Source: a virus | Length of the DNA: 43,313 nucleotides | Reading direction: 5' to 3' (one strand) | Virus genome (UHGV): UHGV-0213395 | Shown: piece after piece, positions 1,365-42,928 of the stretch | How positions within the stretch are numbered: position 1 is the first letter of the stretch | Layout of the letters: every line of letters begins with the position of its first letter | The notes under the pieces: model-generated | The model's database searches: none | What the model was told of the DNA's origin: nothing | The model's input: only the letters and a program-made list of their open reading frames with translations | Made by a program: the position numbers and the translations under genes

Positions 1365-1368
1365 GAAA

Positions 1369-1388
1369 AAGGCCCCGAAAGGGGCCTT
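1369..1388. terminator. bidirectional rho-independent terminator (AAGGCCCC-GAAA-GGGGCCTT)
   Basis: Perfect 8-bp GC-rich stem between convergent genes; A-run upstream gives a U-run on the minus strand, AGTTTTA downstream on plus. Confidence 0.7.
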
Positions 1389-1392
1389 AGTT

Positions 1393-8361: not shown

Positions 8362-8680
8362 GTTTCCCCTTTCTCGATAAGTAAAGCCCCGCCATAAAGC
8401 GGGGCGCTAGTCCTTATCATTTAAACATAGAAACGGCGTAATCTCAGTAAACCAGTTACTTTTTACACAAGCAATAGAGTATGGCCCTTCCGAACGCGTC
8501 AGCGTAACTACACTCAGGACTTACGTCCCGCTCCGTTACCTGCCCGCGCCGCGGTCGCTTGTTCATACTTCACAAGCTCAGGTGGAGCTTATCATATTTT
8601 TAGTGAAAAGTCAACTATTCGAATAGTTTATTCCAACATTTACAATTCGGAGGAATAACTGGAATACGTAAATAAATAGT

Positions 8681-8709
8681 TTGCACACCCCAATATAATA
8701 GGGTACTAT
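8681..8709 (+). promoter_or_regulatory. sigma70-type promoter TTGCAC-N17-TACTAT (conserved early promoter, copy 1)
   Basis: Near-identical ~33 bp to copies at 42872-42900 (+), 20239-20267 (-) and 19065-19093 (-); AGGAGG SD and ATG at 8737 downstream. Confidence 0.55.
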
Positions 8710-8736
8710 TCAGTTAACTTAAACAGGAGGTGAAAA

Positions 8737-8940: not shown

Positions 8941-8945
8941 AAACT

Positions 8946-8966
8946 AAGGCCCCATAATGGGGCCTT
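8946..8966. terminator. bidirectional terminator (AAGGCCCC-ATAAT-GGGGCCTT)
   Basis: Perfect 8-bp stem followed by TTTAT; between convergent ORF ends at 8940 and 8970. Confidence 0.7.
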
Positions 8967-8969
8967 TTA

Positions 8970-9431
8970 TCATTCTGGCTTAGTAACCTTCGCCGCTTTG
9001 CTTACCGCCTCTACTCCATCGGCATCAGTAACTTTAACGAAGTATTCGCCGACCGCATTAACCGTCAGAGACAGAGCCTCCTCAGGCGCATTCACCACTT
9101 CCTTACCGTCTTTGTACCAGGTCAGAGAATACGGCGCTTTGCCTGCCTTAACCTCGACAGTGATGGTTGCGCTGCCGCCCGCCAGTTCAGCGTCCTGCGG
9201 TTGCGCAGAGAAATACACGTCGCCAGCGTCCGCCAGATACGGAATTTCATAAAGCATACCAGCGGCGGGCAACGCAATACCGGTTTTATCTGCAAACGGC
9301 ATATCATCTACCGGTGTACCGAGTACACTTTCGTCCTCAATAAATACCACGTTCTCGCCAGAGCCAGACACGCGGGCGTACTGGACTACGCGACGAGACG
9401 GTACGTCAGTTACTTTGAAAAAGCCCATCAT
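8970..9431 (-). CDS. Ig-like domain protein (153 aa)
   Basis: C-terminal APYSLTWYKDGKEV...GEYFVKVTDADG Ig-like signature, paralogous to the domain in 5308..5658. Confidence 0.55.
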   Translation of the reverse strand: MMGFFKVTDVPSRRVVQYARVSGSGENVVFIEDESVLGTPVDDMPFADKTGIALPAAGMLYEIPYLADAGDVYFSAQPQDAELAGGSATITVEVKAGKAPYSLTWYKDGKEVVNAPEEALSLTVNAVGEYFVKVTDADGVEAVSKAAKVTKPE

Positions 9432-10507
9432 TATTCCCCTTTCAGATAATCAGCAACACGTTTATCGAGTTCCGCCATCTGCTTAAGCGTGAGCGGATTC
9501 CCGAAACCATCTACAGATATTACGCGAAACTCTTCCGGCGATATACCGCTGTTACGGAAAATCTTACCTCGCACCGGGCCGAGCGCCTGGTCCTGAAACC
9601 ACGCCGGTTGTTGTTTAAGGAACTCGTAGTAAGTGGTGTCTGCGCTTACCTGAGTGCCACCTTCCGCGCCTTTAGCCGCGCGTTTTGCGCCTTTATCGAG
9701 GAAGTCGAACTCGGAACTGATTACCGGAGCCGTGCACGACCGGCAGTTCGGATGGGCTGGGGGCATCGGCCCCTTACCAATTTCCCACGTCATCCCGTCT
9801 CTGACCCTGCAAATTGTACTGGTGCGGCTGTCAAGCGTTGACACCCACTCGTACTTCTCGATGATGTCGTCGTTCTGGCGGTACGTCTCGTTACGGGCCT
9901 CGTTGGATACGTGGGACAGCGCGGTGCGGATTACCGTAGTCGCGTTACGTTCTGAGATGTCGGCTAGTCCACCAGCGCCAACAACATTCTTAACAATCTG
10001 CCGTGTGGTTTGACCTTGCACAAAGCCCATCTTAACTCCAGTTACAAGACGTGCTACTTCCGTTTCGCCCCATCCAGACATCAGCTTGGTGAAATCAACG
10101 GGCTTGTCGCTCAATGATAATGGTTGAAACTCGGCAGCGGCCCATACCTGCTCAGCGGTAGGCGTAACAAATTCCGCGTTTACGTTGGCGGTCAGTGTCT
10201 TTACGTTCCACTCCGCCTCATACGCCGCCAGTTCCTTAAGGTCTTCTGTCAGCTTTGTTTGCCAGTCACCCGTAAGCCCCGTCAGAGCTTCTTCAAGGTC
10301 ACGTAACAGTTTATTCAGCCGTGCGGTGCTGCGGCCGTCGTCGCCGAATAGCAGCACCTGCCGTTTGATTTCGTCCCGCATTTCCTGAATGAATGGTGCG
10401 AGGTCTTTTACTTCACCGGATGCGGCGCGTTGCAGCCAAATCTGGTGGCTGATTAGTGATGTCAGTAAGCTCATAGATAAACCCTGTGGCGCTAAAGTTA
10501 ATAGCAT
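9431..10507 (-). CDS. head morphogenesis (minor head) protein candidate (358 aa)
   Basis: Gene directly after portal, the usual place for SPP1 gp7/Mu F-type proteins. Positional call. Confidence 0.55.
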   Translation of the reverse strand: MLLTLAPQGLSMSLLTSLISHQIWLQRAASGEVKDLAPFIQEMRDEIKRQVLLFGDDGRSTARLNKLLRDLEEALTGLTGDWQTKLTEDLKELAAYEAEWNVKTLTANVNAEFVTPTAEQVWAAAEFQPLSLSDKPVDFTKLMSGWGETEVARLVTGVKMGFVQGQTTRQIVKNVVGAGGLADISERNATTVIRTALSHVSNEARNETYRQNDDIIEKYEWVSTLDSRTSTICRVRDGMTWEIGKGPMPPAHPNCRSCTAPVISSEFDFLDKGAKRAAKGAEGGTQVSADTTYYEFLKQQPAWFQDQALGPVRGKIFRNSGISPEEFRVISVDGFGNPLTLKQMAELDKRVADYLKGE

Positions 10508-10543
10508 ACTATAAGAAAGCCCCTTTCGGGGCTATAGGTGAAC

Positions 10544-15851: not shown

Positions 15852-15880
15852 AATATAATAGGGTCGTAGGTAATAGTCAA
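15852..15880 (-). promoter_or_regulatory. promoter TTGACT-N17-TATATT on minus strand
   Basis: Located between the strong terminator at 15902-15934 and the ATG at 15818; contains CCCTATTAT half-site related to the operator motif. Confidence 0.4.
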
Positions 15881-15901
15881 CTAGTCATTGCAGAAAATAG
15901 A

Positions 15902-17223: not shown

Positions 17224-17517
17224 TTATTTATGACGCCAGATGTATTGTCGTCTCTGCGGTTTAGTCGGAATATCATCGTACCCCAGCGATTTCCAGTAAT
17301 TAAATAGCCGGTTCGCGATAGCTGCGCGTTCCTTTGTTTTAAACTCTCCTAGATTCACGGCCTTTCCGTTCTGGAATCCACAGGCGCGGATAGCTTTACG
17401 CCGTTCTTGTATCTCTGGGTACAGCGCGTTACGGCGGCGCTTGTGTATACGTGTCTTCGCTCTCGGTGACAGCGGCGCAAGGCCGCTTCGTTTCAGGATG
17501 TCAGTTGCTAACGACAT
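17224..17517 (-). CDS. hypothetical basic protein (97 aa)
   Basis: Start moved to ATG at 17517, 1 nt past the stop of the upstream paralog gene. Confidence 0.45.
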   Translation of the reverse strand: MSLATDILKRSGLAPLSPRAKTRIHKRRRNALYPEIQERRKAIRACGFQNGKAVNLGEFKTKERAAIANRLFNYWKSLGYDDIPTKPQRRQYIWRHK

Positions 17518-17786
17518 CACTCCACCCCTTCCACATGTGTAACTGACCCACAGTTCGCGCACTCGACGTAATCAGGGTACTGGTCTTTGTATTTCTGTAG
17601 CTCGGCGTTTACTTCTGCCAGTCTCGACACAAGCCCTTCTATTTCCTTGTCGTCGTCGGCTAGACGTTCCTGGTAATAGTCGTCCAGTTCCTTATAGCTG
17701 TCGTACTCTACATAATCGCCGTATGCGTACTCAGCCATCTCAGGCTCTGGCAGGCCCCACGCTTTTACCTCATATCTCTGTACCAT
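17517..17786 (-). CDS. small protein, tandem paralog B (89 aa)
   Basis: Starts MVQRY, ends ELQKYKDQYPDYVECANCGSVTHVEGVE; C-terminus identical to neighbour A. Confidence 0.5.
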   Translation of the reverse strand: MVQRYEVKAWGLPEPEMAEYAYGDYVEYDSYKELDDYYQERLADDDKEIEGLVSRLAEVNAELQKYKDQYPDYVECANCGSVTHVEGVE

Positions 17787-17989
17787 TACTCCACCCCCTC
17801 CACATGTGTAACCGACCCGCAGTTCGCGCACTCGACGTAATCCGGGAACTGGTCCTTGTATTTCTGTAACTCGGCTTCAACTTCCAACAGCTTTAGGTCA
17901 AGATTCTGGTAGTCCTCAAACTTAACCCACTTCCCGTGGCGGTCAATGAAATGGTTGTCGGACCCATACTTAGAATATCTCTGTACCAT
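17786..17989 (-). CDS. small protein, tandem paralog A (67 aa)
   Basis: Start moved to internal ATG (MVQRYSKYG...); ends ELQKYKDQFPDYVECANCGSVTHVEGVE. Confidence 0.45.
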   Translation of the reverse strand: MVQRYSKYGSDNHFIDRHGKWVKFEDYQNLDLKLLEVEAELQKYKDQFPDYVECANCGSVTHVEGVE

Positions 17990-19033: not shown

Positions 19034-19064
19034 ATTCTGTCTCTCCTCTCGTTTGTGTAAATGA

Positions 19065-19093
19065 ATAGTAGCCTATTCTATATTAGTGTGCAA
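19065..19093 (-). promoter_or_regulatory. conserved early promoter, copy 3 (TTGCAC-N17-TACTAT, minus strand)
   Basis: rc reads CTTGCACACTAATATAGAATAGGCTACTATTCA; same architecture as the other copies. Confidence 0.5.
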
Positions 19094-19170
19094 GTAAATT
19101 TTATTGGTGTTTGTATTGTTGCGTCTCCTGCAATAGTCGCTTCGATTGTTGCGTTTGGTGAAATAGAACA

Positions 19171-20204: not shown

Positions 20205-20238
20205 AACCCTCACTCCTCTGTCTCGTTTCGATAAGTGA

Positions 20239-20267
20239 ATAGTATCCTATTATGTTGGGGTGTGCAA
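20239..20267 (-). promoter_or_regulatory. conserved early promoter, copy 4 (TTGCAC-N17-TACTAT, minus strand)
   Basis: rc reads CTTGCACACCCCAACATAATAGGATACTATTCA, differing at about 2 positions from the plus-strand copies. Confidence 0.55.
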
Positions 20268-20626
20268 GAGAATAGTTACGTTGCCGTTGTGATTCTTTCG
20301 AAACTGTTGTGCCTTTATTCTTATTACTTGGTAACTAAAGGGCAGGCCCTAAGCCTGCCCAATAATCGTTACATTTTTACGGTTGCGAATCTACGGCACA
20401 TTAAGAAACAGTAGATATTTCAGCGGGTTACTTCTTTAAATGAGATTTAGATACACTTATCCTTAAACCACAAGGCAAGCATCTCAGCTGTCTGGGAGGG
20501 GTTGACGAATCCCTCGGGGAGGGTTCGTCAACTCCGTAATATATACAAGTCCCAAAACCATTATACAAACATGTGTCAAGAACTTTCAATAACTTTTTTG
20601 TAAAGATTAAATATTGCAGGGATTGG

Positions 20627-20655
20627 TTGCTTTTACATTCCCGCTATCCTATACT
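20627..20655 (+). promoter_or_regulatory. rightward promoter TTGCTT-N17-TATACT
   Basis: Sits about 30 nt upstream of AGGGGA SD and ATG 20687 of the first rightward gene. Confidence 0.45.
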
Positions 20656-20686: not shown

Positions 20687-20869
20687 ATGCAACATTACAT
20701 GACACAGAATGAGGTAGCCGAGCGTATCGGGGTGACACGTCAGACCATTAATAACTGGTTGCGCAGCGGCAAATTCCCTGACTGCTGTATTAAGGTTATG
20801 GGCCGCCGTTTACCGGGAACATTTGACCGTAATAAAGTCGAAGCATGGATTAAGGAGAACGTGAAATGA
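20687..20869 (+). CDS. small HTH DNA-binding protein (AlpA/MerR-type, 60 aa)
   Basis: MTQNEVAERIGVTRQTINNWLRSGKFP HTH signature; start moved to ATG 20687; first gene of rightward operon. Confidence 0.6.
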   Translation: MQHYMTQNEVAERIGVTRQTINNWLRSGKFPDCCIKVMGRRLPGTFDRNKVEAWIKENVK

Positions 20870-21156
20870 AAGGCGTAATTTTCCACAATAAAGCAGAAAA
20901 CGAAGTGTATATGGTTCACTCCGTGGCCGGAGAGTTCGCTTTATGCTTCAATATCTCTTGCCATCTTGATACCTACCGGCCTTTCTGCGTAGAAACAGAA
21001 ATGAAGCTAATTAGCTTACGCCAACTAAGCACCATGTCGGCATCGCTTAACGTAAGAGATAATCTCGAGTATATCGACTTCTATTTCGGCGATGATTTGG
21101 TCGAGGAATATTTTGAAGAGTATAAAAATTTGCTGGAAGGGTTGGCTAAACGGTAA
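20866..21156 (+). CDS. hypothetical protein (96 aa)
   Basis: ATGA overlap with upstream gene; intact ORF. Confidence 0.55.
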   Translation: MKGVIFHNKAENEVYMVHSVAGEFALCFNISCHLDTYRPFCVETEMKLISLRQLSTMSASLNVRDNLEYIDFYFGDDLVEEYFEEYKNLLEGLAKR

Positions 21157-21225
21157 AAAGAAACCCCAACGCCAGAACGTCGGGGCTAAAGTACAAATCA
21201 TCAAAGTAAGCATAAGGATTATACA

Positions 21226-21354
21226 ATGACAAAGTTAATAGTTCCACAGCTACGCCGCCAGAAACACGGCGCTGACTTCTTCGCACCGGTAAAGATGAAC
21301 CGCGCAATGCGCCGTATGCAGGAAGCCTTAGAACGTGCGGAGAAAAAGAAATGA
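21226..21354 (+). CDS. small basic protein (42 aa), coupled to helicase-primase
   Basis: AAGGA SD; ATGA overlap with start of 21351 gene. Confidence 0.3.
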   Translation: MTKLIVPQLRRQKHGADFFAPVKMNRAMRRMQEALERAEKKK

Positions 21355-23585
21355 ATATTGTTTTTGCAACGCTGCGTAACACATTCGATAAAAACCCTGT
21401 AGCGCGTGAGATGCCGCTCGAGCAGTTTGTGGAGTATGTCTGCGATACATCGAAGCGTTTATCCGTGGACCCGTCATGGACTAAGGAAGAGTACGACGCG
21501 GCCAAGATTAAACAGAAAGCTATTGCGCCTGTTGGCGGTCGCCGTAAGAACGCTATTCTGGAAGACAGTGTGGTTAAGTTCGATTTTGACCATCTCAACC
21601 GTACTCAGTACCGCGACCTTACCCGCAAATTCAAGAACGCACCGTTCTTCAATATTCTGCATACAACGGCATCGCATCAGCATGTGTGTAAAAACGGAGA
21701 TTACGCTTTCCGCGTTCTGGTTCCAGCTCGCACGCCGTTTAACTCTAACGACGCGTGGATGGTGCAACGTGCTATTTGTGCAGAGTTAGAAATAGACGAA
21801 GCGTTGCGCGACCACTGCACGGAAGATGGCAACCGCCTTATCTACCTGCCGCACAAAGAGTCGAAGATAACGGTTACAGAAGGGCGTGTTATCCGTGCCG
21901 AGCGGTACATCAAGAAAGCCGAAGAGATGGGGTTGCGTAAGCGTGAGGCTAAAACACTTGCCGCTGATGAGCATGGGCTTAACGCGGATATAGCACACTT
22001 CTGCGAAGCCGAGCTTGGCCTTGACGCTTTATCTTCCGGGCGCGGGTACGAAGTGCCATGCCCTAACGAACATCTGCATACAGGCAAGGGCTCCACCAGC
22101 ATAATGCTCGACGGTAAAGAAGTGCGCTTTGTCTGCCAGCATACAAACAACGGCGCTTGCACCGAGCTTAACCGCCGACAGCATTTGGCCCTGCGTATGT
22201 GCGGCCTGCCAGACGAGCTTAACGTAGACAAGCAACCTATCAGCATTAACAGCATTCGTGCGGCTCTGCCTGATTTACCGGAAGAAGAGATTGAAGAACT
22301 ACACCGCACAGAGAACGAGGACCCAGTAACTTGCAGCCTCGACGACCTGGAAGACGACGAGGACTCAGAGGAGGACTCAGAGGGGGACGGGTTACCGGAG
22401 CCGGTAAAGGCTGATTTCGTCGTTGAGGGGTACATGCCGTCGGATTGTATCTGGGATATCGTCGGGGAATCTGGCACGTACAAATCGTTCTATACGCTGG
22501 GGATGATGTACCTCAGCGCCGCCGGGTACAGGTTTGCGGGGGCGGATACCCAGCGTTGCCACCATTTCTATATTGATGGTGAGGGTGGCGCAGCTACACG
22601 CACCCGTATTGATGCACTAGCGGCTAAATATGGCGGGGAAGGTAAAGATTATGTACACGTCATCGATATGGGCGAAGTCGGCAAACTTAAAAGCCTGATT
22701 AAGTTAATGCGCGAAACTGCTGGCGACGAGCCAATTGGCATGGTTGCGTTCGACACCCTTAACCAGACCCTGGCACTGACGATTGATAAGTTCGACGAGA
22801 ACAGTTCATCAACAGCAATCGGCATGGGTAAAGTTATCGCCATTCTGAAAGAAGTACGCGATGCAACTAAAGCCGCAGTAGGCGTTGTCCACCATACGCC
22901 GAAGGGTGGAAAGAAAGCACGCGGCAGTGGGGCGCTGTATGCGGGTGTTGACGTGGAACTGACAATCGAACGTGCAACCGACCGTCAAATAAACGTATAC
23001 CACTCGAAATTTAAGCACGGTCCTCAACAGAAAACGGTTGGCATGGTGCTGGAGTCTGTGCAGTTCCGCGAAGCTCCGCCGCCGAAAGAGTACCGTGCGG
23101 TTGAGTTCCTGGGGGGCACAGAAGAATACGGCACAATCGTAAACCTGGACCTTCCTGAACCACACAAGGCGCTTGTGTTGATGCCGTGGGGTTTCGAGCC
23201 GTTCAAAACTGACGAGGAGAAAGAGCGGGAAGAAGGGTTGACGAAAGAAGGTAAGCAAAAAGTAAAGGAAGAAGTTAAACGCGGCAGGGATGAAGTAAGG
23301 AAGGAGTCAATACTTTCGGCACTGGAAGACCTGCAACAGTCAGATGACACAGGTCGCGGTTTTACTCAGCAGCAGATAGTGGCTCGTTCCGGTGACTTCT
23401 CTGTGACTAACACCCATCTTGATAAAATGTTGAAAGATGGAGAACTAATGCTTGGTTGCGATGCTAACGGCGAAGTAGTACCGAGAACATATCGTATACC
23501 CGAAAGAATAGGGGATAGATTAAGGCCGAAGACACTATACGAACCAAATGAGATGCTGGTGGTGACAGAGGAGGATTTGGAATAG
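21351..23585 (+). CDS. DNA helicase-primase (primase-like N-terminal region with RecA/DnaB-like NTPase domain, 744 aa)
   Basis: Walker A GESGTYKS and DnaB/RepA-like region; acidic C-terminus ...VVTEEDLE. Confidence 0.7.
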   Translation: MNIVFATLRNTFDKNPVAREMPLEQFVEYVCDTSKRLSVDPSWTKEEYDAAKIKQKAIAPVGGRRKNAILEDSVVKFDFDHLNRTQYRDLTRKFKNAPFFNILHTTASHQHVCKNGDYAFRVLVPARTPFNSNDAWMVQRAICAELEIDEALRDHCTEDGNRLIYLPHKESKITVTEGRVIRAERYIKKAEEMGLRKREAKTLAADEHGLNADIAHFCEAELGLDALSSGRGYEVPCPNEHLHTGKGSTSIMLDGKEVRFVCQHTNNGACTELNRRQHLALRMCGLPDELNVDKQPISINSIRAALPDLPEEEIEELHRTENEDPVTCSLDDLEDDEDSEEDSEGDGLPEPVKADFVVEGYMPSDCIWDIVGESGTYKSFYTLGMMYLSAAGYRFAGADTQRCHHFYIDGEGGAATRTRIDALAAKYGGEGKDYVHVIDMGEVGKLKSLIKLMRETAGDEPIGMVAFDTLNQTLALTIDKFDENSSSTAIGMGKVIAILKEVRDATKAAVGVVHHTPKGGKKARGSGALYAGVDVELTIERATDRQINVYHSKFKHGPQQKTVGMVLESVQFREAPPPKEYRAVEFLGGTEEYGTIVNLDLPEPHKALVLMPWGFEPFKTDEEKEREEGLTKEGKQKVKEEVKRGRDEVRKESILSALEDLQQSDDTGRGFTQQQIVARSGDFSVTNTHLDKMLKDGELMLGCDANGEVVPRTYRIPERIGDRLRPKTLYEPNEMLVVTEEDLE

Positions 23586-23594
23586 GTAAAAAGA

Positions 23595-23613
23595 AAGGGG
23601 CTTTAAGCCCCTT
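23595..23613 (-). terminator. terminator hairpin at end of XRE regulator gene
   Basis: AAGGGGC-TTTAA-GCCCCTT; U-run on the minus strand; the regulator stop codon lies in the loop. Confidence 0.5.
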
Positions 23614-23818
23614 CACCTAACGCCAGCCACTTGGCGTCTACTTCCAGAACTTCCGCCAGTTTGAACAGCGTTGCCGGGCGGACGTCCTGAGTTACTCCAA
23701 GTGCCAGTTGGTTAATCGCGCCCTGGGAAACGCCGGTCAGGGCCGCCAAACGGCGCTGGGAGATGCCGAGTTCTTTGCGGCGTTGTTCTACACGGATGCC
23801 TAGTTCAGATGGTTGCAT
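23603..23818 (-). CDS. Cro/CI-type (XRE family) HTH transcriptional regulator (71 aa)
   Basis: GISQRRLAALTGVSQGAINQLALG HTH_XRE signature; AAGGAG SD; antisense and monocistronic within the replication module. Confidence 0.75.
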   Translation of the reverse strand: MQPSELGIRVEQRRKELGISQRRLAALTGVSQGAINQLALGVTQDVRPATLFKLAEVLEVDAKWLALGEGA

Positions 23819-23882
23819 GTCAATTACTCCTTAGTCAGTTGATATGTGAATAGTACCATATTAATTATTTTAGAAAAGCCCA

Positions 23883-23911
23883 TTGACATGTGAATAGTTC
23901 GCTATTATAGT
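23883..23911 (+). promoter_or_regulatory. promoter TTGACA-N17-TATAGT with AATAG-N4-CTATT operator-like palindrome in the spacer
   Basis: Consensus -35, 17-nt spacer, good -10; near-identical architecture at 26566-26594; drives the gene at 23943. Confidence 0.55.
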
Positions 23912-23942
23912 TAGCCCATACCAAACGAGAGGAGAGAAACAA

Positions 23943-24443
23943 ATGTTAGAACAATTCTTAAAATTACTGGAACGTTTCGTAGTTGCACATGAACTGATTG
24001 CTGCGAACAGTGCGAAACAGTCAGCACAAGTTGCAGCGCCGTTAGAAGTAGAGACGGTAGTGTATACCAAAGAAGCGGTAGCTGAGTGCGAAAAAGAAGC
24101 AACAAAAGAAATCCCTGTTGAAGGTGAAGACATCGTTGACGCTAAACCAGCAGAAGAAGAGAAGCCGAAACGCAAGCCGCGTAAAGCTAAAGTAGAGGAG
24201 CCGACTCCAGAACCAGAAGAAGAGAAAGAAGAGGTCGATTACCAGTCTCTTCGTGACCAGATTCAGGCTATCGACGATGCAATTAACGAAGGTCCTAGCG
24301 ATGCTGCGTGCGACGATTCCGATGAACTGCTGGAGGAGTTCACCGGTAAGAAAATGAAGATTGCCGCGATTAAAGACGAAGACCTGGCTGAATACCTGAA
24401 ACGCCTGACGGCGATTAAGAACAAGTATTTCGAAGAAGAATAA
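23943..24443 (+). CDS. highly acidic low-complexity protein (166 aa)
   Basis: GAGAGGAGAG SD; Glu/Asp/Lys-rich central region; terminator at 24452-24470. Confidence 0.6.
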   Translation: MLEQFLKLLERFVVAHELIAANSAKQSAQVAAPLEVETVVYTKEAVAECEKEATKEIPVEGEDIVDAKPAEEEKPKRKPRKAKVEEPTPEPEEEKEEVDYQSLRDQIQAIDDAINEGPSDAACDDSDELLEEFTGKKMKIAAIKDEDLAEYLKRLTAIKNKYFEEE

Positions 24444-24451
24444 TTTATCTG

Positions 24452-24470
24452 GCGGCCTCCGGGCCGCTTT
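24452..24470 (+). terminator. rho-independent terminator
   Basis: GCGGCC-TCCG-GGCCGC followed by TTT. Confidence 0.5.
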
Positions 24471-24486
24471 AACAGAGGGTCGTAAT

Positions 24487-24759
24487 ATGATTTACCAACT
24501 CTACCGAGGTATTGACCGACGGGATAACACAGAGGCGTTGTGGCTGTTGCGTGCGCCGTCCGGCGCGCACCAGATGGAAGAGATGGCCTACCTCGGCAAA
24601 GTACCGAAGCCGAAAGATATAGGCCGTCACCTGTCGCAGATTAAGCGCACGACATTCGTTAAAAGTGACTTTTATGTCTTCGAGTCGATGTATAGCTGGG
24701 CGATGCATTGTGACCACAAGACACGACATTTAATTGACCAGTGGGAGAACCGGGTATGA
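24487..24759 (+). CDS. hypothetical protein (90 aa)
   Basis: AGAGGG SD; intact ORF. Confidence 0.55.
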   Translation: MIYQLYRGIDRRDNTEALWLLRAPSGAHQMEEMAYLGKVPKPKDIGRHLSQIKRTTFVKSDFYVFESMYSWAMHCDHKTRHLIDQWENRV

Positions 24760-25103
24760 CGGATAAATGGTGGCTTAATCTGCGTAGTGGTGACAAGGTT
24801 TACACCGTCGGTGACCGCAGAAAGAACAGCGGCGTAGCTACTGTGCTACAAAACGGCAAAAAGTACATCCACATTGCGCATGAAGCTCGAGCACTCCGCG
24901 TGAATAAATCGTCTGGAAGACTTGAGGATTACCCGAAAACATTAATATACAAAAGCGAAAAGCATCACATGGCCACTGTTGACGCAAGACGTAAGTTCGC
25001 AGGAATGCTGCAACAGTTAAGCGACTTACATCGTGATGATTCTTTCATCCCCACAGAAGAACAGCTACAGGCATTAAACTTGTATTTGGAGAGTTTACGA
25101 TGA
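24756..25103 (+). CDS. hypothetical protein (115 aa)
   Basis: Start moved to ATG 24756 (ATGA overlap with upstream stop). Confidence 0.55.
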   Translation: MTDKWWLNLRSGDKVYTVGDRRKNSGVATVLQNGKKYIHIAHEARALRVNKSSGRLEDYPKTLIYKSEKHHMATVDARRKFAGMLQQLSDLHRDDSFIPTEEQLQALNLYLESLR

Positions 25104-26380
25104 TTCTAAAAGAACGCGGCGGCAATAACGACGTACACGCCTTACTGTCACCGTCAGGTGCTAAAAAGTGGTTAACCTGCGCCGCATCACTGGCCTGTGA
25201 AAAGGATATTCCTGACACGTCCGGTAAAGCTGCGATATTAGGCACGGCAATGCACACCATAGCCGAGATACACCTTAACCAGTACATCAAAGGCACTGCG
25301 TTGCCATTAGAACGTGAAGTCGGCGCTTATGTACTGGACGAAGGAAAAGGCCAGATTAAGGCGTTAATCAGCCCTATGAAAGGCGCGGTACTGATTACGG
25401 CTGACATGATTGAACAGGTTCGCAAGTACACCGACTACTGCAAAGCGATTATCGATGTAGCGACTTACGCCAAGCTGGAAATGCGTGTCAATCTTACTGA
25501 GGTATTGCATCCGGGCTACAAAGTACCTGCTGAGAGTGAAGAAGGTAAGGAGGATGATTTAGAGACATTCGGGACAGCCGACTTAGTGGCGGTTATAGAA
25601 GGCTTTACAGGTGAAAGTAACTCCGCGATGCTCATTATCGGCGACCTTAAAACAGGACGGCATCGCGTCGAAGCGAAAGAAAACAAGCAGCTTATGCTTT
25701 ACGCTCTCGGTGTTTATCGTCGACTCAAGAGACGTTATAACATAACAACCGTTCGTCTGGTCATCTTCCAGCCTTACGCTGGGGGCGCGACAGAGTGGGA
25801 CATCTCGGTTGAAGGACTGGAACTGTTCGCTAAGTTCGCACAGAAACGCGCGCTGTTAGCGCTTGATGCGTATTTCCGTGGCAAGAAGAACCTGAAAGCG
25901 TCGGACTTCAAGCCATCGGTAGATGGTTGTCAGTGGTGCCGGTTCTCTGAACAATGCGCTGCGCGTACAAAGACGGTTAATTCTGTACTGGCGGAAGAAC
26001 TGGAAGACGACTTTGTGCTGGAACTGACGCCGGAGCAACTCGTAGCTGAGTATGAGAAGTTGCCGCTGTTGCGCCAGCACATCGACAAGGTTGAGAAAGC
26101 TATGGCGGCCGCGTTGCATTCAGGTAAGAAAGTTCCTGGTTACAAGTTGGTTGAAGGCCGCCCAGGTAATCGTGCATGGAAAGACGCGGAGAAAGTAACA
26201 GAACTCTACGGCGACAAGCTGACTAAAGAAGTGCTCATGTCACCTACCGAAGCTGTTAAAGTCATACCGGAAGAAGAACTGAAAGACTTCATTACCCGTA
26301 AGCCAGGCGCACCATGTGTCGCAACGGCAGACGACAAACGTCCTGAGTGGAATCAGGTAACAGAGGAGGATTTGGAATGA
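25100..26380 (+). CDS. PD-(D/E)XK nuclease with Cys cluster (RecB/Cas4-like recombination exonuclease, 426 aa)
   Basis: GTADLV ... IGDLKTG nuclease motifs; cysteines at WLTCAASLAC and CQWCRFSEQC; C-terminus ...QVTEEDLE. Confidence 0.65.
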   Translation: MILKERGGNNDVHALLSPSGAKKWLTCAASLACEKDIPDTSGKAAILGTAMHTIAEIHLNQYIKGTALPLEREVGAYVLDEGKGQIKALISPMKGAVLITADMIEQVRKYTDYCKAIIDVATYAKLEMRVNLTEVLHPGYKVPAESEEGKEDDLETFGTADLVAVIEGFTGESNSAMLIIGDLKTGRHRVEAKENKQLMLYALGVYRRLKRRYNITTVRLVIFQPYAGGATEWDISVEGLELFAKFAQKRALLALDAYFRGKKNLKASDFKPSVDGCQWCRFSEQCAARTKTVNSVLAEELEDDFVLELTPEQLVAEYEKLPLLRQHIDKVEKAMAAALHSGKKVPGYKLVEGRPGNRAWKDAEKVTELYGDKLTKEVLMSPTEAVKVIPEEELKDFITRKPGAPCVATADDKRPEWNQVTEEDLE

Positions 26381-26580
26381 TTCAAGTAAATGAAATGCCC
26401 ACAGATAAAGATTTTGTGATGATATGGCGCTGGGGCGGTTATATCCATTCGGAATCGTTTACGTTCCTGAACGGCACGATGGTGCGATACAACCATGTGG
26501 AGGATGAATTCGAACCCGTTGATATGAATGATTTCGAGAACATAGTCCGTATTGCGAAATTTTATTTGACACCTGAATAG
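26377..26580 (+). CDS. hypothetical protein (67 aa)
   Basis: ATGA overlap with nuclease stop; the GAGGAGGA SD lies inside the nuclease C-terminal codons. Confidence 0.5.
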   Translation: MIQVNEMPTDKDFVMIWRWGGYIHSESFTFLNGTMVRYNHVEDEFEPVDMNDFENIVRIAKFYLTPE

Positions 26581-26594
26581 TTAGCTATTATAGT
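26566..26594 (+). promoter_or_regulatory. promoter TTGACA-N17-TATAGT with operator-like palindrome (second copy)
   Basis: TTGACACCTGAATAGTTAGCTATTATAGT; drives the SSB-like gene at 26648. Confidence 0.5.
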
Positions 26595-26647
26595 TCTAAT
26601 CACTGGCCGGGCAGCTCCCGGAGTAAACTTAAAAGCGAGAAATCAAG

Positions 26648-27274
26648 ATGGGCATTAAACTGAATCTGCGTAAAGTAAACACTGCATGGGTTAACGTATT
26701 CGAACGCGAAAAAGACCGTGAAAACGACGACGGCTCAATCACTAAAGGCCAGTACAGCGCAACTATCATCCTGCCGTCTGACCATGCTCAAATCGACGCG
26801 CTCTACGACACCGTTTACGCTGTGGTTGAAGAAGCGTTGGGTGCAGCCGCCGCAGAGAAATGGATGAAGTCAAACTACGGCGAAGGCAAGCACATGGATA
26901 AATGCGCGATTAAGGACATCGCCGAGCGCGACAATCCGTTTGAAGACTTCCCGGAAGGTTTCTACTTCAAAGCGAAAGCGCAGAAACAACCTCTGATTGT
27001 AACATCTAAAAAAGGCGAAACTCAGGTAGAACCAGACTTCAATGTAGAAGGCGAACAGATTGAAGGTGAACAGGTGTACAGTGGCTGCGTCGCTAACGTA
27101 AGCGTTGAAATCTGGTTCAGCCAGAAATATAAAGTACTCGGCGTTAACCTGCTGGCAATTAAGTACGTTGGCGAAGGTAAAGCGTTTGGAGGCTCTAAAG
27201 TTGCTGCAAGCGTCGACGACCTGGAAGACGACGAAGAAGATGAAGCACCGCGCCGCGAACGTCGCCGCCGTTAA
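26648..27274 (+). CDS. SSB-like ssDNA-binding protein candidate with acidic C-terminal tail (208 aa)
   Basis: Sits between nuclease and polymerase as in DUF2800/DUF2815/PolA-type modules; C-terminal DDLEDDEEDE then basic tail. Confidence 0.5.
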   Translation: MGIKLNLRKVNTAWVNVFEREKDRENDDGSITKGQYSATIILPSDHAQIDALYDTVYAVVEEALGAAAAEKWMKSNYGEGKHMDKCAIKDIAERDNPFEDFPEGFYFKAKAQKQPLIVTSKKGETQVEPDFNVEGEQIEGEQVYSGCVANVSVEIWFSQKYKVLGVNLLAIKYVGEGKAFGGSKVAASVDDLEDDEEDEAPRRERRRR

Positions 27275-27293
27275 TATCTGAATCAATTTAACT

Positions 27294-27316
27294 AAGGCCC
27301 TTCATTGGGCCTTTTT
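27294..27316 (+). terminator. rho-independent terminator
   Basis: AAGGCCC-TTCATT-GGGCCTT followed by TTT. Confidence 0.6.
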
Positions 27317-27333
27317 ACTAAGGGTCGAAAATC

Positions 27334-27489
27334 ATGTTTTTCTGTAAGCACGTATACCGATATATGAAACCGCTTCCGTGGTACGCGGATGAGTACCGCG
27401 CCGGGTACAGGCATGTGTGGATTTGCCGTGATTGTATGAAAATAAGACTCAGCGAAACGAAGGCACTGGATTTAAGGAAAAAGAAATGA
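27334..27489 (+). CDS. small Cys-containing protein (51 aa), coupled to DNA polymerase
   Basis: AGGGT SD; MFFCKH...ICRDCM; ATGA overlap with polymerase start. Confidence 0.3.
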   Translation: MFFCKHVYRYMKPLPWYADEYRAGYRHVWICRDCMKIRLSETKALDLRKKK

Positions 27490-29666
27490 GCTACTTATAC
27501 CTGGACTTTGAAACATTCTCCGAAGCCGATTTAAAGAAAGTCGGCTCCTACGCTTACGCCGAACACCCGACTACCGAAGTGCTTATCTGCACATATGCTT
27601 TTGACGACGAGCCTGTGCGGGTATGGGATTGCACCGACGGCAGCGACATGCCGGGTGATTTGCACCGCGCACTGCGCCGCCTGGTTAAGCCGAACAGTCG
27701 TATTAAGATGGTGTGGCACAACGGCTCAATGTTCGACAGGCTCATCATGAAACACTGCTGGGGCTTTGATATTCCCGTAAGCAACACCATTGATACGATG
27801 ATTTGGGCGTTTCGTCACGCGCTGCCGGGTTCACTTGATGCGCTGTGCGAAGTGCTGGGCGTGTCTGCAGACAACGCGAAAGATAAACGCGGCAAGGCTC
27901 TGATTAAGCGTTTCTCTAAACCGACGCCGAAGAACTACAAAATCCGCCGCTACACCGCAGAAACTCACCCTGACGAGTGGGCGATGTTCATCAGGTACGC
28001 CGTGAGCGACATCACTGCGATGCGTGAAGTCTTCCATAAGCTGCCGCGTTGGGGTAACTCCGAGTTCGAAGACCGTGTACTGGAACTGGACCAGTTGATT
28101 AACGACCGTGGGTTTAAGGTTGATGTGACGCTGGCGGAAGCCGCGATTGAAGCCGTGGAAAAACACAAGGCCCAGCTACAGGAAGAAGCACAGCGCAAAT
28201 ACGGCGGCTCGCTTACTGGTAAAGACTTCCTGCCGATTCTGCGTGAACTTGCACCAGCGCACCGCATCCACAACGCGCAGAAGTCTACGCTTAACGACCT
28301 GTTGGCGGATGATGATTTACCGGACGACGCACGCACGATTATCGAAATGCGCCTCGGGGCCGCGTCCACAGCGTCAACGAAATATAACCCGCTGCTGTTA
28401 GGGCGCTCGTCGGACGACCGCCGTCGTGGTTGCATTCAGTACGGCGGAGCCAAGCGTACATTACGATTTGCCGGTAAAGGATTTCAGCCGCAGAACCTCG
28501 CGCGTGGGTACTATCACGATGATGAACTGGATAAAGGTATTTCAGCGTTACTTAAGGGCCGCGCGCATCGCCGTTTCGATGTCGCTAAGCTAACGGCATC
28601 GACGGTGCGTAGCTGCATTATCCCGGAAGCCGGAAAAAAGTTTGTCGTCGCCGATTACTCTAACGTTGAAGGTCGGGGGCTTGCGTGGCTGGCAGGCGAA
28701 GAAACCGCGCTAGATACGTTCCGCGCCGGGCTGGACATTTACTGTGTAACCGCGGGTAAGATGTTCGGCATGGAGCCGGATTACATTAAGAAGGAACGCA
28801 AAGACTTGCGCCAGATTGGTAAAGCCTGCGAGCTTGGCCTCGGCTACGCTGGTGGTGTTGGCGCTTTCGTTCAGTTTGCTAAGAACCTCGGACTTGACCT
28901 TGTTGATATGTCAAAAACAATGGACGGTACTTTCCCGGACCACATCTGGGCGGCTACTGCACGCGGCTATGAATGGGCACGTATTCAGGAAGCCAAGCGA
29001 CCGCCGCGACCCGGGGAGAAGGATGACCGACCATCGTATATTCTTGATAAGAAAGTGTGGCGTACCTGTGACGCTATCAAGCGTATGTGGCGAGAGTCAC
29101 ACCCTGAAACAGTAGCTTTCTGGCGAGATATTGAAGACGCAGCTATGGCCGCTATCCGCAATCCAGGTAAAGAGTTCACCGCGGGGCCTAGGGGGGTTAA
29201 GTTTTCGCGCAACGTAGAGACAGACAACAACGGCAACAAAGTCGCCGGCTGGTGGTTGCGCATGACGTTGCCGTCGGGTCGCGTTATGTCTTATCCGGGC
29301 GTCGGGTTAAGCGTGTCGAAAGAAACAGACGAAGATGGAAAAGTGTCTACTAACGTACGCATCAAGTACCAGGGGGAGAACCAGTTAACCCGTCAGTGGG
29401 GCTTCCAGTACACCTACTCTGGTAAACTCGTGGAAAACTGTACTCAGGCGCTGTGCCGTGATTTGCTGGCCAATGCACTGCTGAACGTTGAAGCAAACGG
29501 CTATCCTATTGTGCTTCACGTACACGACGAAATTATCTGCGAAACACCAGATACGCCAGAATACAATGTTGCAGAGCTTGAGCGGTTGATGTGCGAATTA
29601 CCGGAGTGGGCGGAGGGGTTCCCTCTTGTAGCGGAAGGTGCGGAGATGAAGCGTTATGCCAAGTAA
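27486..29666 (+). CDS. family A DNA polymerase with N-terminal 3'-5' exonuclease domain (726 aa)
   Basis: Exo motif YLDFETFS; Pol A motif A VVADYSNVEGR, motif B RKDLRQIGKACELGLGYAGG, motif C VLHVHDEIICE. Start moved to ATG 27486 (AAGGAAAAAG SD). Confidence 0.85.
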   Translation: MSYLYLDFETFSEADLKKVGSYAYAEHPTTEVLICTYAFDDEPVRVWDCTDGSDMPGDLHRALRRLVKPNSRIKMVWHNGSMFDRLIMKHCWGFDIPVSNTIDTMIWAFRHALPGSLDALCEVLGVSADNAKDKRGKALIKRFSKPTPKNYKIRRYTAETHPDEWAMFIRYAVSDITAMREVFHKLPRWGNSEFEDRVLELDQLINDRGFKVDVTLAEAAIEAVEKHKAQLQEEAQRKYGGSLTGKDFLPILRELAPAHRIHNAQKSTLNDLLADDDLPDDARTIIEMRLGAASTASTKYNPLLLGRSSDDRRRGCIQYGGAKRTLRFAGKGFQPQNLARGYYHDDELDKGISALLKGRAHRRFDVAKLTASTVRSCIIPEAGKKFVVADYSNVEGRGLAWLAGEETALDTFRAGLDIYCVTAGKMFGMEPDYIKKERKDLRQIGKACELGLGYAGGVGAFVQFAKNLGLDLVDMSKTMDGTFPDHIWAATARGYEWARIQEAKRPPRPGEKDDRPSYILDKKVWRTCDAIKRMWRESHPETVAFWRDIEDAAMAAIRNPGKEFTAGPRGVKFSRNVETDNNGNKVAGWWLRMTLPSGRVMSYPGVGLSVSKETDEDGKVSTNVRIKYQGENQLTRQWGFQYTYSGKLVENCTQALCRDLLANALLNVEANGYPIVLHVHDEIICETPDTPEYNVAELERLMCELPEWAEGFPLVAEGAEMKRYAK

Positions 29667-29787
29667 ACTGATTATCGCGGTACTGGCGGGATTTGCCGCC
29701 GGTGTCTACTGTCACGAGGGACAATACGGCATGATGGTTGCCATATTGGGCATGTTCATCGCAATTTATATGTGGGTGCTGGAATGA
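29656..29787 (+). CDS. small membrane protein (43 aa)
   Basis: ATG overlaps 3' end of polymerase gene; hydrophobic IIAVLAGFAAGV ... VAILGMFIAIYMWVL. Confidence 0.3.
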   Translation: MPSKLIIAVLAGFAAGVYCHEGQYGMMVAILGMFIAIYMWVLE

Positions 29788-29873
29788 AAATTTACTGGTT
29801 TTATGAAGACGACTGCCGAATCTGCCCGCGCTGCGGGATTGAGCATACGAAACGTGAGGGGTGCGTATTATGA
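29784..29873 (+). CDS. 29-aa zinc-ribbon-like peptide
   Basis: CRICPRC ... EGC cysteine pattern; ATGA coupling on both sides. Confidence 0.25.
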   Translation: MKIYWFYEDDCRICPRCGIEHTKREGCVL

Positions 29874-30022
29874 CAATGTTTGTATTTAGGACCATAGTAA
29901 CCATGCTCGCACTGTTACTCGGTGCGGGAATAGCTGCTATGTTCTGTTACGGCCTGTTCTTTCAGTTTGCCGGTGTTGCCATTCTAGGCTGGGTTTTCCT
30001 TACCTGGATGCTGCGGTCATGA
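29870..30022 (+). CDS. small membrane protein (50 aa, 2 predicted TM segments)
   Basis: Hydrophobic throughout; ATGA overlap with VRR-NUC start. Confidence 0.3.
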   Translation: MTMFVFRTIVTMLALLLGAGIAAMFCYGLFFQFAGVAILGWVFLTWMLRS

Positions 30023-30351
30023 CTAAAGAGGGCCGCATCCAGAAATACGCAAAAGAGCGATTCGAGGCCATTGGTGGCCTCGTTCGTAAACTTTCCTACG
30101 AAGGACGTTCAGGCGCTCCTGACCTGCTGGCAATTCTACCCGGCGGCATCGTCTGGTTCGTCGAGGTGAAGAAAGACGAAAACACTAAGCCAGACCCGCA
30201 CCAGCTACGGGAACACGAGCGTATACGTAAACGTGGCGCAAATGTTTTTGTCGTTGGTTCGATAAAACAGATTGACACCCTAATAGCAGACTATTATAGT
30301 AAGCACATACCCCAACAATATAAGGAATTTAGAAATGAAACACGAATATGA
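30019..30351 (+). CDS. VRR-NUC domain nuclease (110 aa)
   Basis: PDLLAI ... VEVKK PD-(D/E)XK core in a ~100 aa protein. Confidence 0.65.
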   Translation: MTKEGRIQKYAKERFEAIGGLVRKLSYEGRSGAPDLLAILPGGIVWFVEVKKDENTKPDPHQLREHERIRKRGANVFVVGSIKQIDTLIADYYSKHIPQQYKEFRNETRI

Positions 30352-30526
30352 CCGCAAACCAGCACGTGACATCGTACCAGGCGACATGATTTTCAACGTT
30401 AAGACCCGTCGTCCTGTTGCCGTTGATACGGTGTTCGTCGAGTCGAACGGTAAACTGGTTATCGAAGATGTAACGGGTAACGTTACGGCGTTCGGGCGTA
30501 AAGAGCTGGTGCTGGTGGCAAAATGA
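30335..30526 (+). CDS. hypothetical protein (63 aa)
   Basis: Intact ORF overlapping neighbours. Confidence 0.45.
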   Translation: MKHEYDRKPARDIVPGDMIFNVKTRRPVAVDTVFVESNGKLVIEDVTGNVTAFGRKELVLVAK

Positions 30527-42871: not shown

Positions 42872-42900
42872 TTGCACACCCCAATATAATAGGGTACTAT
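42872..42900 (+). promoter_or_regulatory. conserved early promoter, copy 2 (TTGCAC-N17-TACTAT)
   Basis: Identical over ~33 bp to the copy at 8681-8709; GAGG SD and ATG 42929 downstream. Confidence 0.55.
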
Positions 42901-42928
42901 TCACATGTAACTTACTGAGGAAATAATT

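What the first reader, a model, noticed from the sequence alone, without database searches (positions are those of the whole stretch)
20235..20268. One ~33-bp promoter sequence reused four times on both strands
CTTGCACACCCCAA(T/C)ATAATAGG(G/A)TACTATTCA with TTGCAC-N17-TACTAT occurs at 8681-8712 (+), 42871-42903 (+), 20235-20268 (-) and as a variant at 19062-19094 (-). It drives both leftward early transcription units and both antisense morons in the structural region. Conservation far beyond the -35/-10 hexamers implies an additional shared factor-binding requirement or recent duplication by recombination.
Basis: seen in the sequence. Interest (0 to 1): 0.65.

Follow-up and report, generated by a model that had tools for sequence, protein, structure and literature searches.

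The report
Shared promoter with embedded repressor-binding palindrome
The repeated 33-bp sequence is real: it is one class of host-type promoters in a Kagunavirus-like E. coli phage. What the copies share beyond the promoter hexamers is a 14-bp palindrome, most likely the binding site of the phage's own small Cro-like regulator, which makes it a conserved but ordinary kind of phage gene switch.

Summary
TTGCAC-N17-TACTAT occurs exactly four times (expected 0.01): 8681-8712(+), 42872-42903(+), 20236-20267(-) and a variant at 19065-19093(-). Each lies 24-30 nt upstream of the ribosome-binding site and start codon of the first gene of a transcription unit.

The conserved core is a palindrome, AATAG-N4-CTATT, with 7 perfect copies (expected 0.03). 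It also sits, in the opposite orientation and a different register, in three near-consensus TTGACA-N17-TATAGT promoters of the replication genes (23883, 26566, 30272). A degenerate copy lies at the promoter of a divergent 71-aa HTH_3 gene (23603-23818, -) whose closest solved relatives are 434 Cro and the 434 repressor.

The palindrome is the top-ranked palindrome, alone or tied, in every Kagunavirus and Jerseyvirus sequence examined. It is absent where the regulator is 44% identical or less. Homologous regulators in unrelated phages have palindromes of the same design (ATTAG-N4-CTAAT, TGTAG-N4-CTACA, TAAAG-N4-CTTTA) just upstream of their own genes.

Best reading: sigma-70 promoters with an embedded operator that is occluded by a phage Cro-like dimer. 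Binding and repression are inferred, not shown.

The motif was already published for the relative fBC-Eco01, mislabelled there as a phage-RNA-polymerase promoter. No RNA polymerase gene was found among the ten largest ORFs. This is a new member of a known kind, of modest interest.

The parts
8681..8712 (+). A1: A-type promoter TTGCAC-N17-TACTAT with palindrome AATAGGGTACTATT (8697-8710). Drives the 67-aa ORF 8737-8940, antisense within the head-gene region.
42872..42903 (+). A2: A-type promoter, identical to A1 over 32 nt, palindrome 42888-42901. Drives 42929-43255, then across the window ends 7-1137 (DNA-repair exonuclease) and 1134-1364. Antisense within the tail-gene region.
20236..20267 (-). 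A3: A-type promoter, 2 differences from A1, palindrome 20238-20251. Drives the first leftward unit of small genes (ATG at 20204) down to the terminator at 19208-19187.
19065..19093 (-). A4: variant A-type promoter with the same hexamers and palindrome arms (19064-19077) but a different spacer. Drives the second leftward unit (ATG at 19033), which by the Bas72 annotation runs into the holin and endolysin genes.
23883..23911 (+). B1: TTGACA-N17-TATAGT promoter with the same palindrome (23893-23906) in the spacer, in inverted orientation relative to the A-type. Drives 23943-24443 and the recombination/replication genes that follow.
26566..26594 (+). B2: TTGACA-N17-TATAGT promoter, palindrome 26576-26589. 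Lies upstream of the gp2.5-like ssDNA-binding gene and the DNA polymerase gene.
30272..30300 (+). B3: TTGACA-N17-TATAGT promoter, palindrome 30282-30295. Lies upstream of 30335-30526, the methyltransferase gene and the helicase gene.
23847..23865 (-). B4: degenerate copy (AATATGGTACTATT, 23862->23849) that supplies a TACTAT -10 for the regulator gene. Its centre is 44 bp from the centre of B1.
23603..23818 (-). 71-aa HTH_3 (XRE/Cro-type) regulator gene. This is the proposed binder of the palindrome.
15852..15880 (-). C-type promoter TTGACT-N17-TATATT with a one-mismatch palindrome (15872-15885) centred on the -35 hexamer. Lies after the terminator that follows the lysis genes.
8606..8619 (-). 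One-mismatch palindrome AATAGTTGACTTTT over a TTGACT hexamer, pointing towards the spanin and head genes. The -10 hexamer is uncertain.
8946..8966 (.). Bidirectional intrinsic terminator that closes the A1 cassette.
1366..1392 (.). GC-rich hairpin of the same repeated terminator family, at the end of the A2 unit.
20687..20869 (+). 60-aa HTH_17 protein gene. This is the second, less likely candidate binder. Its own promoter TTGCTT-N17-TATACT (20627-20655) lacks the palindrome.

Best explanation
The 33-bp repeat is one class ('A-type') of host sigma-70 promoters in a Kagunavirus-like virulent siphophage. Beyond the hexamers, these promoters share a 14-bp palindromic operator, AATAG-N4-CTATT. In the A-type the operator spans about -19 to -6, and its right arm forms part of the -10 hexamer TACTAT. 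The same operator, flipped, lies in the spacer (about -25 to -12) of the strong TTGACA-N17-TATAGT promoters of the replication genes. A degenerate copy lies at the promoter of the divergent 71-aa Cro-like HTH_3 gene. One-mismatch copies lie over the -35 hexamer of two further promoter-like sites. The proposed mechanism is that a dimer of the 71-aa protein binds these sites and blocks RNA polymerase. This would turn down the replication-gene units, the small-gene units and the two units that run antisense to the structural operons, while a weak site at the regulator's own promoter gives autoregulation. Shown here: the sequences, their statistics, their positions relative to genes, their conservation across two genera, and the fold and family of the protein. 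Inferred: promoter activity, which protein binds, and that binding represses.
For: 1. Statistics and anatomy. There are 7 perfect palindromes against 0.03 expected, and 12 with at most 1 mismatch against 1.1 expected. The arms are invariant while the central 4 nt vary (GGTA, TAGC, TATC, TTCG, TTAG, CAGA). This is the pattern expected of a dimeric HTH operator.

2. The same core lies in promoters that share nothing else, in two orientations and two fixed registers. Across 41 Kagunavirus and 13 Jerseyvirus sequences, the gap from a TTGnnn hexamer to the palindrome is 4 nt (86+22 sites) or 10-11 nt (71+14 sites). A sigma-70 spacer has no reason of its own to be conserved.

3. It is the top-ranked 5-mer-arm palindrome, alone or tied for top, in the window, in the full genomes of that clade examined in that call (Bas72, fBC-Eco01, Jersey, PVP-SE2), and in all 48 IMG/VR loci with a regulator >=48% identical to that of the window over most of its length, plus L071, a Jersey-like locus whose match covers only residues 15-69 at 40%. 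It has 0 copies in loci with a regulator <=44% identical. St162-like phages carry TATTA-N6-TAATA at the equivalent promoter positions.

4. The 71-aa protein matches Pfam HTH_3 (3.9e-13). Its closest solved sequences are 434 Cro and the 434 repressor (about 1e-5). Its model (pLDDT 81) matches XRE-family DNA-binding domains such as HipB, C.BclI, 434 Cro, SinR and P22 c2, several of them solved on operator DNA. The gene sits beside two sites whose centres are 44 bp apart.

5. Homologous regulators in unrelated phage contigs have palindromes of the same design 38-123 nt upstream of their own gene: ATTAG-N4-CTAAT in L058, L062, L072/73 and L085, TGTAG-N4-CTACA in L076, and TAAAG-N4-CTTTA (two copies 46 bp apart) in L059-61. 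My estimate of the chance expectation is about 0.005 per locus.

6. The sites are conserved at orthologous positions in Bas72, Bas71, 590B and fBC-Eco01, while the upstream flanks vary.
Against: There is no binding, footprint or transcript data, and I found no transcriptome study of this subfamily. The A-type hexamers match the consensus at only 7 of 12 positions (my count), and the consensus scan did not list them, so an activating role cannot be excluded. The recognition helices of the Kagunavirus and Jerseyvirus regulators differ (SQGAINQ against SQSLITH) although the operator core is the same, and the Jerseyvirus and St162 helices are more alike although their operators differ, so helix and site do not co-vary simply. 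The spacer ACCCCAAYAT shared by A1-A3 is conserved in 36 distinct orthologous sequences and the palindrome does not explain it. A second HTH protein (HTH_17) is encoded nearby. Sites at nearly every transcription unit, including the one that carries the lysis genes, do not fit a simple 'early shut-off' picture.
Confidence: 0.6

Rival explanations
1. The palindrome-binding protein is an activator, so the A-type elements are activator-dependent (middle or delayed) promoters rather than repressed ones.
For: A-type hexamers are weak: TTGCAC matches 3 of 6 and TACTAT 4 of 6 (my count), and the consensus scan does not list them. The unit downstream of A4 includes the lysis genes. The regulator's own promoter has a poor -35 hexamer.
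Against: The site overlaps the -10 hexamer or fills the spacer, positions typical of steric repression (established knowledge of 434, P22 and lambda operators). The near-consensus B-type promoters (11 of 12) need no activator yet carry the same site. The registers differ by 6 bp, so the site faces different sides of the helix relative to the polymerase.
Confidence: 0.15
2. The similarity is only history. A promoter cassette was recently copied or gene-converted between sites, and no extra factor is involved.
For: A1 and A2 are identical at 32 of 32 positions. The ACCCCAAYAT spacer shared by A1-A3 is not part of the palindrome. In fBC-Eco01 the A2 position carries the A3-type variant, and a fifth copy drives an extra antisense cassette. 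This shows that copies move or exchange.
Against: Identity stops exactly at the promoter edges. The arms are kept in B-type promoters whose other sequence is unrelated, and across Kagunavirus and Jerseyvirus, while the central 4 nt vary. Orthologous copies are conserved in dozens of genomes whose flanks have diverged.
Confidence: 0.1
3. The palindrome is bound by a different factor: the phage HTH_17 protein (20687-20869), another small phage protein, or a host regulator.
For: A second HTH gene is present. Helix-operator co-variation for the HTH_3 protein is imperfect. Many small early genes have no known function.
Against: The motif follows phage lineage, not host. It is shared by E. coli Kagunavirus and Salmonella Jerseyvirus but absent from Salmonella phage St162. 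HTH_3 homologues in unrelated phages sit next to palindromes of the same design. From general knowledge, HTH_17/Xis-type proteins do not usually read 14-bp symmetric sites.
Confidence: 0.1
4. These are promoters for a phage-encoded RNA polymerase, as the motif was labelled (via PHIRE) in the fBC-Eco01 genome paper.
For: PMC9825357 lists seven such sites with consensus tgAATAGTa-ccTATTat-T under 'Phage RNAP promoter'.
Against: No RNA polymerase domain is present in the ten largest ORFs, and none is annotated in Bas72, Jersey, St162, fBC-Eco01 or PVP-SE2. The motif lies inside standard -35/-10 frames with 17-nt spacing.
Confidence: 0.02

Closest known systems
Operators of the phage 434 Cro/repressor and P22 c2/Cro type (lambdoid immunity regions)
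   Same: A small HTH_3 protein is involved, and 434 Cro and the 434 repressor are the best solved sequence matches. The operator is a 14-bp symmetric site with fixed outer arms and a variable centre. The sites overlap the core promoter elements. Two sites lie in the divergent region next to the regulator gene. From memory, the P22 operator half-sites are TTAAG-N4-CTTAA, which is the same design.
   Different: The sites are spread over the whole genome at about 10 promoters, not clustered in OL/OR triplets. The phage has no integrase or long CI-type repressor and is classed as virulent. The site is used in two orientations and three registers relative to the hexamers. Binding was not tested.
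PHIRE 'phage promoter' motif reported for Kagunavirus fBC-Eco01 (PMC9825357) and the seven PHIRE elements of vB_EcoS-Golestan (PMC7203180)
   Same: For fBC-Eco01 it is the same element. The listed sequences TGAATAGTACCCTATTATAT, TGAATAGTATCCTATTATGT and TGAATAGTAGTCTATTCTAT are the reverse complements of the A1/A2, A3 and A4 types.
   Different: Those papers treat it as a phage-RNA-polymerase promoter and do not note the palindrome, the sigma-70 frames or the adjacent regulator. The Golestan sequences themselves were not read here.
Morons (independent promoter-gene-terminator cassettes inserted in late operons of tailed phages)
   Same: The A1 cassette consists of its own promoter, one small ORF and a bidirectional terminator inside the head-gene region. 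Its cargo differs between relatives, and fBC-Eco01 has an extra cassette with the same promoter.
   Different: The cassettes are antisense to the late operon. They share one phage-wide regulated promoter type rather than each having its own. The A2 unit carries a conserved exonuclease present across the subfamily.
Mycobacteriophage L5 'stoperators' (from memory)
   Same: There are many copies of a single repressor site dispersed through a phage genome.
   Different: Stoperators are asymmetric 13-bp sites inside transcription units, oriented with transcription, in a temperate phage. Here the sites are symmetric and lie on promoters.

Membership tests
Bacterial sigma-70 promoter | -35-like and -10-like hexamers separated by 17 +/- 1 nt | tested here: met
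   TTGCAC-N17-TACTAT occurs 4 times. TTGACA-N17-TATAGT occurs 3 times, two of them listed at 11 of 12 by the scan. The A-type matches the consensus at only 7 of 12 positions.
Bacterial sigma-70 promoter | Position upstream of the first gene of a unit, with a ribosome-binding site downstream and a terminator or divergent gap upstream | tested here: met
Bacterial sigma-70 promoter | Transcripts start 6-8 nt downstream of the -10 hexamer | not testable with these tools
   No 5'-end data. No transcriptome study of this subfamily was found.
Cro/CI-type (XRE, HTH_3) repressor-operator system | Regulator with an HTH_3 fold | tested here: met
   Pfam HTH_3 3.9e-13. 434 Cro and the 434 repressor are the best PDB sequence hits. 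The model matches XRE-family domains with TM 0.6-0.7.
Cro/CI-type (XRE, HTH_3) repressor-operator system | Symmetric operator with conserved arms and a variable centre, repeated at the regulated promoters | tested here: met
Cro/CI-type (XRE, HTH_3) repressor-operator system | Operators overlap the core promoter, including the regulator's own promoter | tested here: met
   Registers -19..-6 (A-type) and -25..-12 (B-type), plus the degenerate site at 23849-23862 upstream of the regulator gene. Positions are counted from predicted hexamers.
Cro/CI-type (XRE, HTH_3) repressor-operator system | The protein binds the operator as a dimer and represses | not testable with these tools
   Only indirect support: lineage correlation and like-designed palindromes next to homologous regulators.
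Phage-RNA-polymerase promoter (PHIRE label in the literature) | The phage encodes its own RNA polymerase | tested here: not met
   No RNA polymerase domain in the ten largest ORFs. None is annotated in five related genomes.
Moron | Own promoter and terminator around a gene inserted in a late operon, with variable presence among relatives | tested here: inconclusive
   The A1 cassette fits. The A2 unit carries a conserved exonuclease. Expression independent of the late operon was not tested.

The most novel reading that the evidence does not exclude
Nearly every transcription unit of this supposedly strictly virulent phage carries the same operator: the small-gene units, the replication units, the antisense cassettes and, as one-mismatch sites over the -35 hexamer, two further promoter-like sites ahead of late-type genes. 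A single Cro/CI-like protein, with matches in 488 phage records of the collection searched, could therefore act as a genome-wide master switch. That would permit a silenced or carrier state, or strict temporal gating graded by site affinity and register, in a group with no known lysogeny. The separately conserved ACCCCAAYAT spacer would then mark a second, unknown input on the A-type promoters.
Probability: 0.12. Interest if true: 0.55.

Novelty: new member of a known kind. Interest (0 to 1): 0.27.

Why it matters
It gives a testable regulatory map for Guernseyvirinae (Kagunavirus and Jerseyvirus), a group widely isolated for phage therapy and biocontrol and included in the BASEL collection. 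The map consists of about ten promoter sites and one candidate regulator. It also corrects a published label ('phage RNAP promoters') and shows why the regulator should not be read as a lysogeny marker. It offers compact promoter/operator parts for engineering these phages. It does not reveal a new principle.

Tried and rejected
1. Rfam at gathering thresholds on the whole window gave no hits.

2. A simple symmetric swap ATTAG-N4-CTAAT in St162 gave only one-mismatch hits (4 against 1.2 expected). The St162 sites are better described as TATTA-N6-TAATA with only 3 copies, so the co-variation argument from that clade is suggestive at best.

3. The phage-RNA-polymerase reading is rejected.

4. 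Literature searches for promoter or transcriptome work on Kagunavirus, Jerseyvirus and Guernseyvirinae returned only PHIRE/phiSITE predictions.

Most multi-copy matches were in the 35-45 kb contigs that also carry the regulator. Two ~28-kb contigs I did not identify (L146, L153) also had two each. Other contigs had one match each, which I took as chance and did not analyse.

6. The ungapped footprints lose register at indels, so only the conserved blocks, not the flanks, should be read from them.

7. The regex collection of A-type variants required the arms, so it cannot be used as evidence of arm invariance.

8. Only a single-sequence structure model was possible, because alignment rows from fetched loci are not accepted. 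Its Foldseek E-values are weak (at best 4e-3) because the domain is small.

Full report
**What the window is.** The window is a complete, circularly permuted genome of a Kagunavirus-like E. coli siphophage. A 6-kb stretch is 99.6% identical to Escherichia phage NicoleGrasset_Bas72, in reverse orientation, and the Bas72 annotation was used as the gene map. In window coordinates the layout is as follows:
- Structural and packaging genes run leftward (about 42764->32898 and 15818->1393).
- Two small-gene units run leftward from about 20267.
- Replication genes run rightward (20687-32734).
- Two short units run rightward, antisense inside the structural region: 8737-8940, and 42929-43255 continuing across the window ends into 7-1364.

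**Checking the observation.** All four copies are present.
- A1 (8681-8712, +) and A2 (42872-42903, +) are identical over 32 nt.
- A3 (20236-20267, -) differs at two positions.
- A4 (19065-19093, -) keeps TTGCAC, TACTAT and TCA but has a different spacer.
- TTGCAC-N17-TACTAT occurs four times exactly against 0.01 expected. The 32-mer with up to 3 mismatches occurs three times against 0.00 expected.
- Identity begins at the -35 hexamer and ends right after TACTATTCA, and the flanks are unrelated.
- Each copy is followed within 24-30 nt by a Shine-Dalgarno sequence and the start codon of the first gene of a unit. Each is preceded by a terminator or a divergent gap.

So the promoter reading is reasonable. 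However, the hexamers match the consensus at only 7 of 12 positions, and the simple consensus scan does not report them.

**What the conserved part is.** The repeat finder linked the four copies to a second family on the + strand at 23875-23922, 26558-26605 and 30264-30311, and to 23839-23863. The shared core is a palindrome, AATAG-N4-CTATT. It has 7 perfect copies against 0.03 expected and 12 copies with at most one mismatch against 1.1 expected. The longer asymmetric form TGAATAGT-N3-CTATTATA has 10 matches against 0.26 expected.

In the second family ('B-type') the palindrome lies in the spacer of near-consensus promoters TTGACA-N17-TATAGT at 23883-23911, 26566-26594 and 30272-30300. There it is in the opposite orientation to the A-type.
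- In the A-type the palindrome spans about -19 to -6, and its right arm is part of TACTAT.
- In the B-type it spans about -25 to -12.
- The arms are invariant while the central four bases differ at almost every site.
- One-mismatch copies sit on the -35 hexamer TTGACT of a promoter-like site at 15880->15852 and at 8606-8619.
- The rightward promoter-like sequence for the HTH_17/helicase-primase unit (TTGCTT-N17-TATACT, 20627-20655) has no palindrome.

**The candidate binder.** Between the helicase-primase gene and B1, a 71-aa gene (23603-23818) lies on the opposite strand. Several lines mark it as a Cro-type DNA-binding protein:
- It matches Pfam HTH_3 at 3.9e-13.
- It falls in PHROG repressor/regulator families.
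- Its best solved sequence relatives are 434 Cro and the 434 repressor, with P22 c2 further down the list.
- A single-sequence AlphaFold model (pLDDT 81) matches XRE-family DNA-binding domains such as HipB, C.BclI, 434 Cro, SinR and P22 c2.

Its upstream region holds two sites whose centres are 44 bp apart: B1, and the degenerate site 23849-23862, which read on the minus strand gives a TACTAT -10 hexamer for the regulator gene.

**Comparative evidence.**
- tblastn found matches to the regulator in 488 phage records. Identity is >90% in Kagunavirus, about 48% in Jerseyvirus, about 40% in St162-like phages, and lower in a few phages of other hosts.
- AATAG-N4-CTATT ranks top, alone or tied, among 5-mer-arm palindromes in the window, Bas72, fBC-Eco01, Jersey and PVP-SE2. 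The same holds in all 48 IMG/VR loci with a regulator >=48% identical to that of the window over most of its length, plus L071, a Jersey-like locus whose match covers only residues 15-69 at 40%. There are no copies in loci whose regulator is 44% identical or less.
- Across 41 Kagunavirus and 13 Jerseyvirus sequences the perfect sites fall into two fixed registers relative to a TTGnnn hexamer: a gap of 4 nt, or of 10-11 nt.
- The sites are at orthologous positions in Bas71, 590B, Bas72 and fBC-Eco01. The promoter blocks are conserved while the upstream flanks vary.
- St162, a Salmonella phage like Jersey, lacks the motif. It has three TATTA-N6-TAATA palindromes at the positions equivalent to A1, A2 and A3/A4. 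The motif therefore follows phage lineage rather than host.
- Homologous regulators in unrelated viral contigs have palindromes of the same design just upstream of their own genes: ATTAG-N4-CTAAT in four lineages, TGTAG-N4-CTACA in one, and TAAAG-N4-CTTTA as a pair 46 bp apart in another. My estimate of the chance expectation is about 0.005 per locus.

This is the best available support for linking this protein family to this type of site.

**Mechanism.** The most likely reading is a set of host-polymerase promoters carrying an operator that a dimer of the 71-aa protein occupies, excluding the polymerase. This works as in 434 and P22 but is dispersed over the genome. A plausible function is to turn down the replication-gene and small-gene units, and especially the two units antisense to the structural operons. 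A weak site at the regulator's own promoter would hold the regulator level steady. These steps are inferred.

Several points weigh against a simple picture:
- The A-type hexamers are weak, so activation is conceivable.
- The unit downstream of A4 includes the holin and endolysin genes.
- The recognition helices of the Kagunavirus and Jerseyvirus proteins differ although the core site is the same.
- The spacer ACCCCAAYAT of A1-A3 is conserved in 36 distinct orthologous sequences but is not explained by the palindrome.

**Duplication versus selection.** Copies clearly share ancestry and are sometimes exchanged. fBC-Eco01 has a fifth A-type copy driving an extra antisense cassette, and its A2 position carries the A3-type variant. 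Recent duplication alone does not fit three facts: identity stops at the promoter edges, the arms are kept in otherwise unrelated B-type promoters, and they are kept across two genera while the centre varies.

**Prior knowledge.** The fBC-Eco01 genome paper lists seven of these sites, found with PHIRE, with consensus tgAATAGTa-ccTATTat-T, and calls them promoters for a phage RNA polymerase (PMC9825357). The Golestan paper reports seven PHIRE elements (PMC7203180). The ten largest ORFs of the window contain no RNA polymerase domain, and none is annotated in five related genomes, so that label is wrong. I found no paper that notes the palindrome, links it to the regulator, or maps transcripts in this subfamily.

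**Verdict.** The element is a conserved promoter/operator module of a familiar type whose motif has already appeared in the literature under a wrong label. Interest is modest.

Noticed in passing
window 20330-20600 (minus strand): A near-consensus promoter TTGAAA-N18-TATAAT (20589->20560) is followed by about 224 nt without a convincing ORF and an intrinsic terminator (20360-20340). The RNA fold has z = -4.4. Only the last ~100 nt are conserved beyond close relatives, but a ~70-nt block there (TGTGCCGTAGATTCGCAACCGTAAAAATGTAACGATTATTGGGCAGGC...) is almost invariant between Kagunavirus and Jerseyvirus. It may be the 3' domain of a small RNA or a DNA-level site just upstream of A3.
   Followed up: partly
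window 42885-42912 (minus strand): The reverse complement of A2 reads GTTACA-N17-TATATT in exactly the B-type register and points at the tail-chaperone and tape-measure genes. A2 may therefore be a bidirectional promoter. A1 lacks a comparable -35 hexamer on the other strand.
   Followed up: partly
window 1363-1398, 8940-8971, 27290-27317, 32868-32899: One family of GC-rich hairpins (AAGGCCCC...GGGGCCTT), probably bidirectional terminators, is reused at the boundaries between oppositely oriented modules.
   Followed up: no
window 20205-20225, 19035-19055, 23920-23940: The leaders of A3, A4 and B1 share AAACGAGAGGAGAG(A) just before the start codon. This is a repeated 5'-UTR and ribosome-binding module in addition to the promoter.
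   Followed up: no
window 20235-20414 (+); L086 (Bas71) 32649-32861: There are annotation problems in relatives. Bas72_0056 (window 20235-20414) starts inside the A3 promoter and is a doubtful gene. Bas71 does not annotate the regulator gene although it is intact and 100% identical.
   Followed up: yes
window 10500-10513: A one-mismatch palindrome (TATAGTATGCTATT on the minus strand) straddles the start codon of the head-morphogenesis gene, right after the portal terminator. It is conserved in Bas72, Bas71 and 590B. fBC-Eco01 has an A-type antisense cassette inserted at this junction.
   Followed up: partly
window 17515-17615 and 17784-17884: A 101-nt direct repeat at 89% identity lies inside the second leftward unit, presumably two paralogous small genes.
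   Followed up: no
window 8615-8630: A perfect 12-bp palindrome CTATTCGAATAG (arms in swapped order) abuts the one-mismatch site at 8606-8619, upstream of the spanin and head genes.
   Followed up: no
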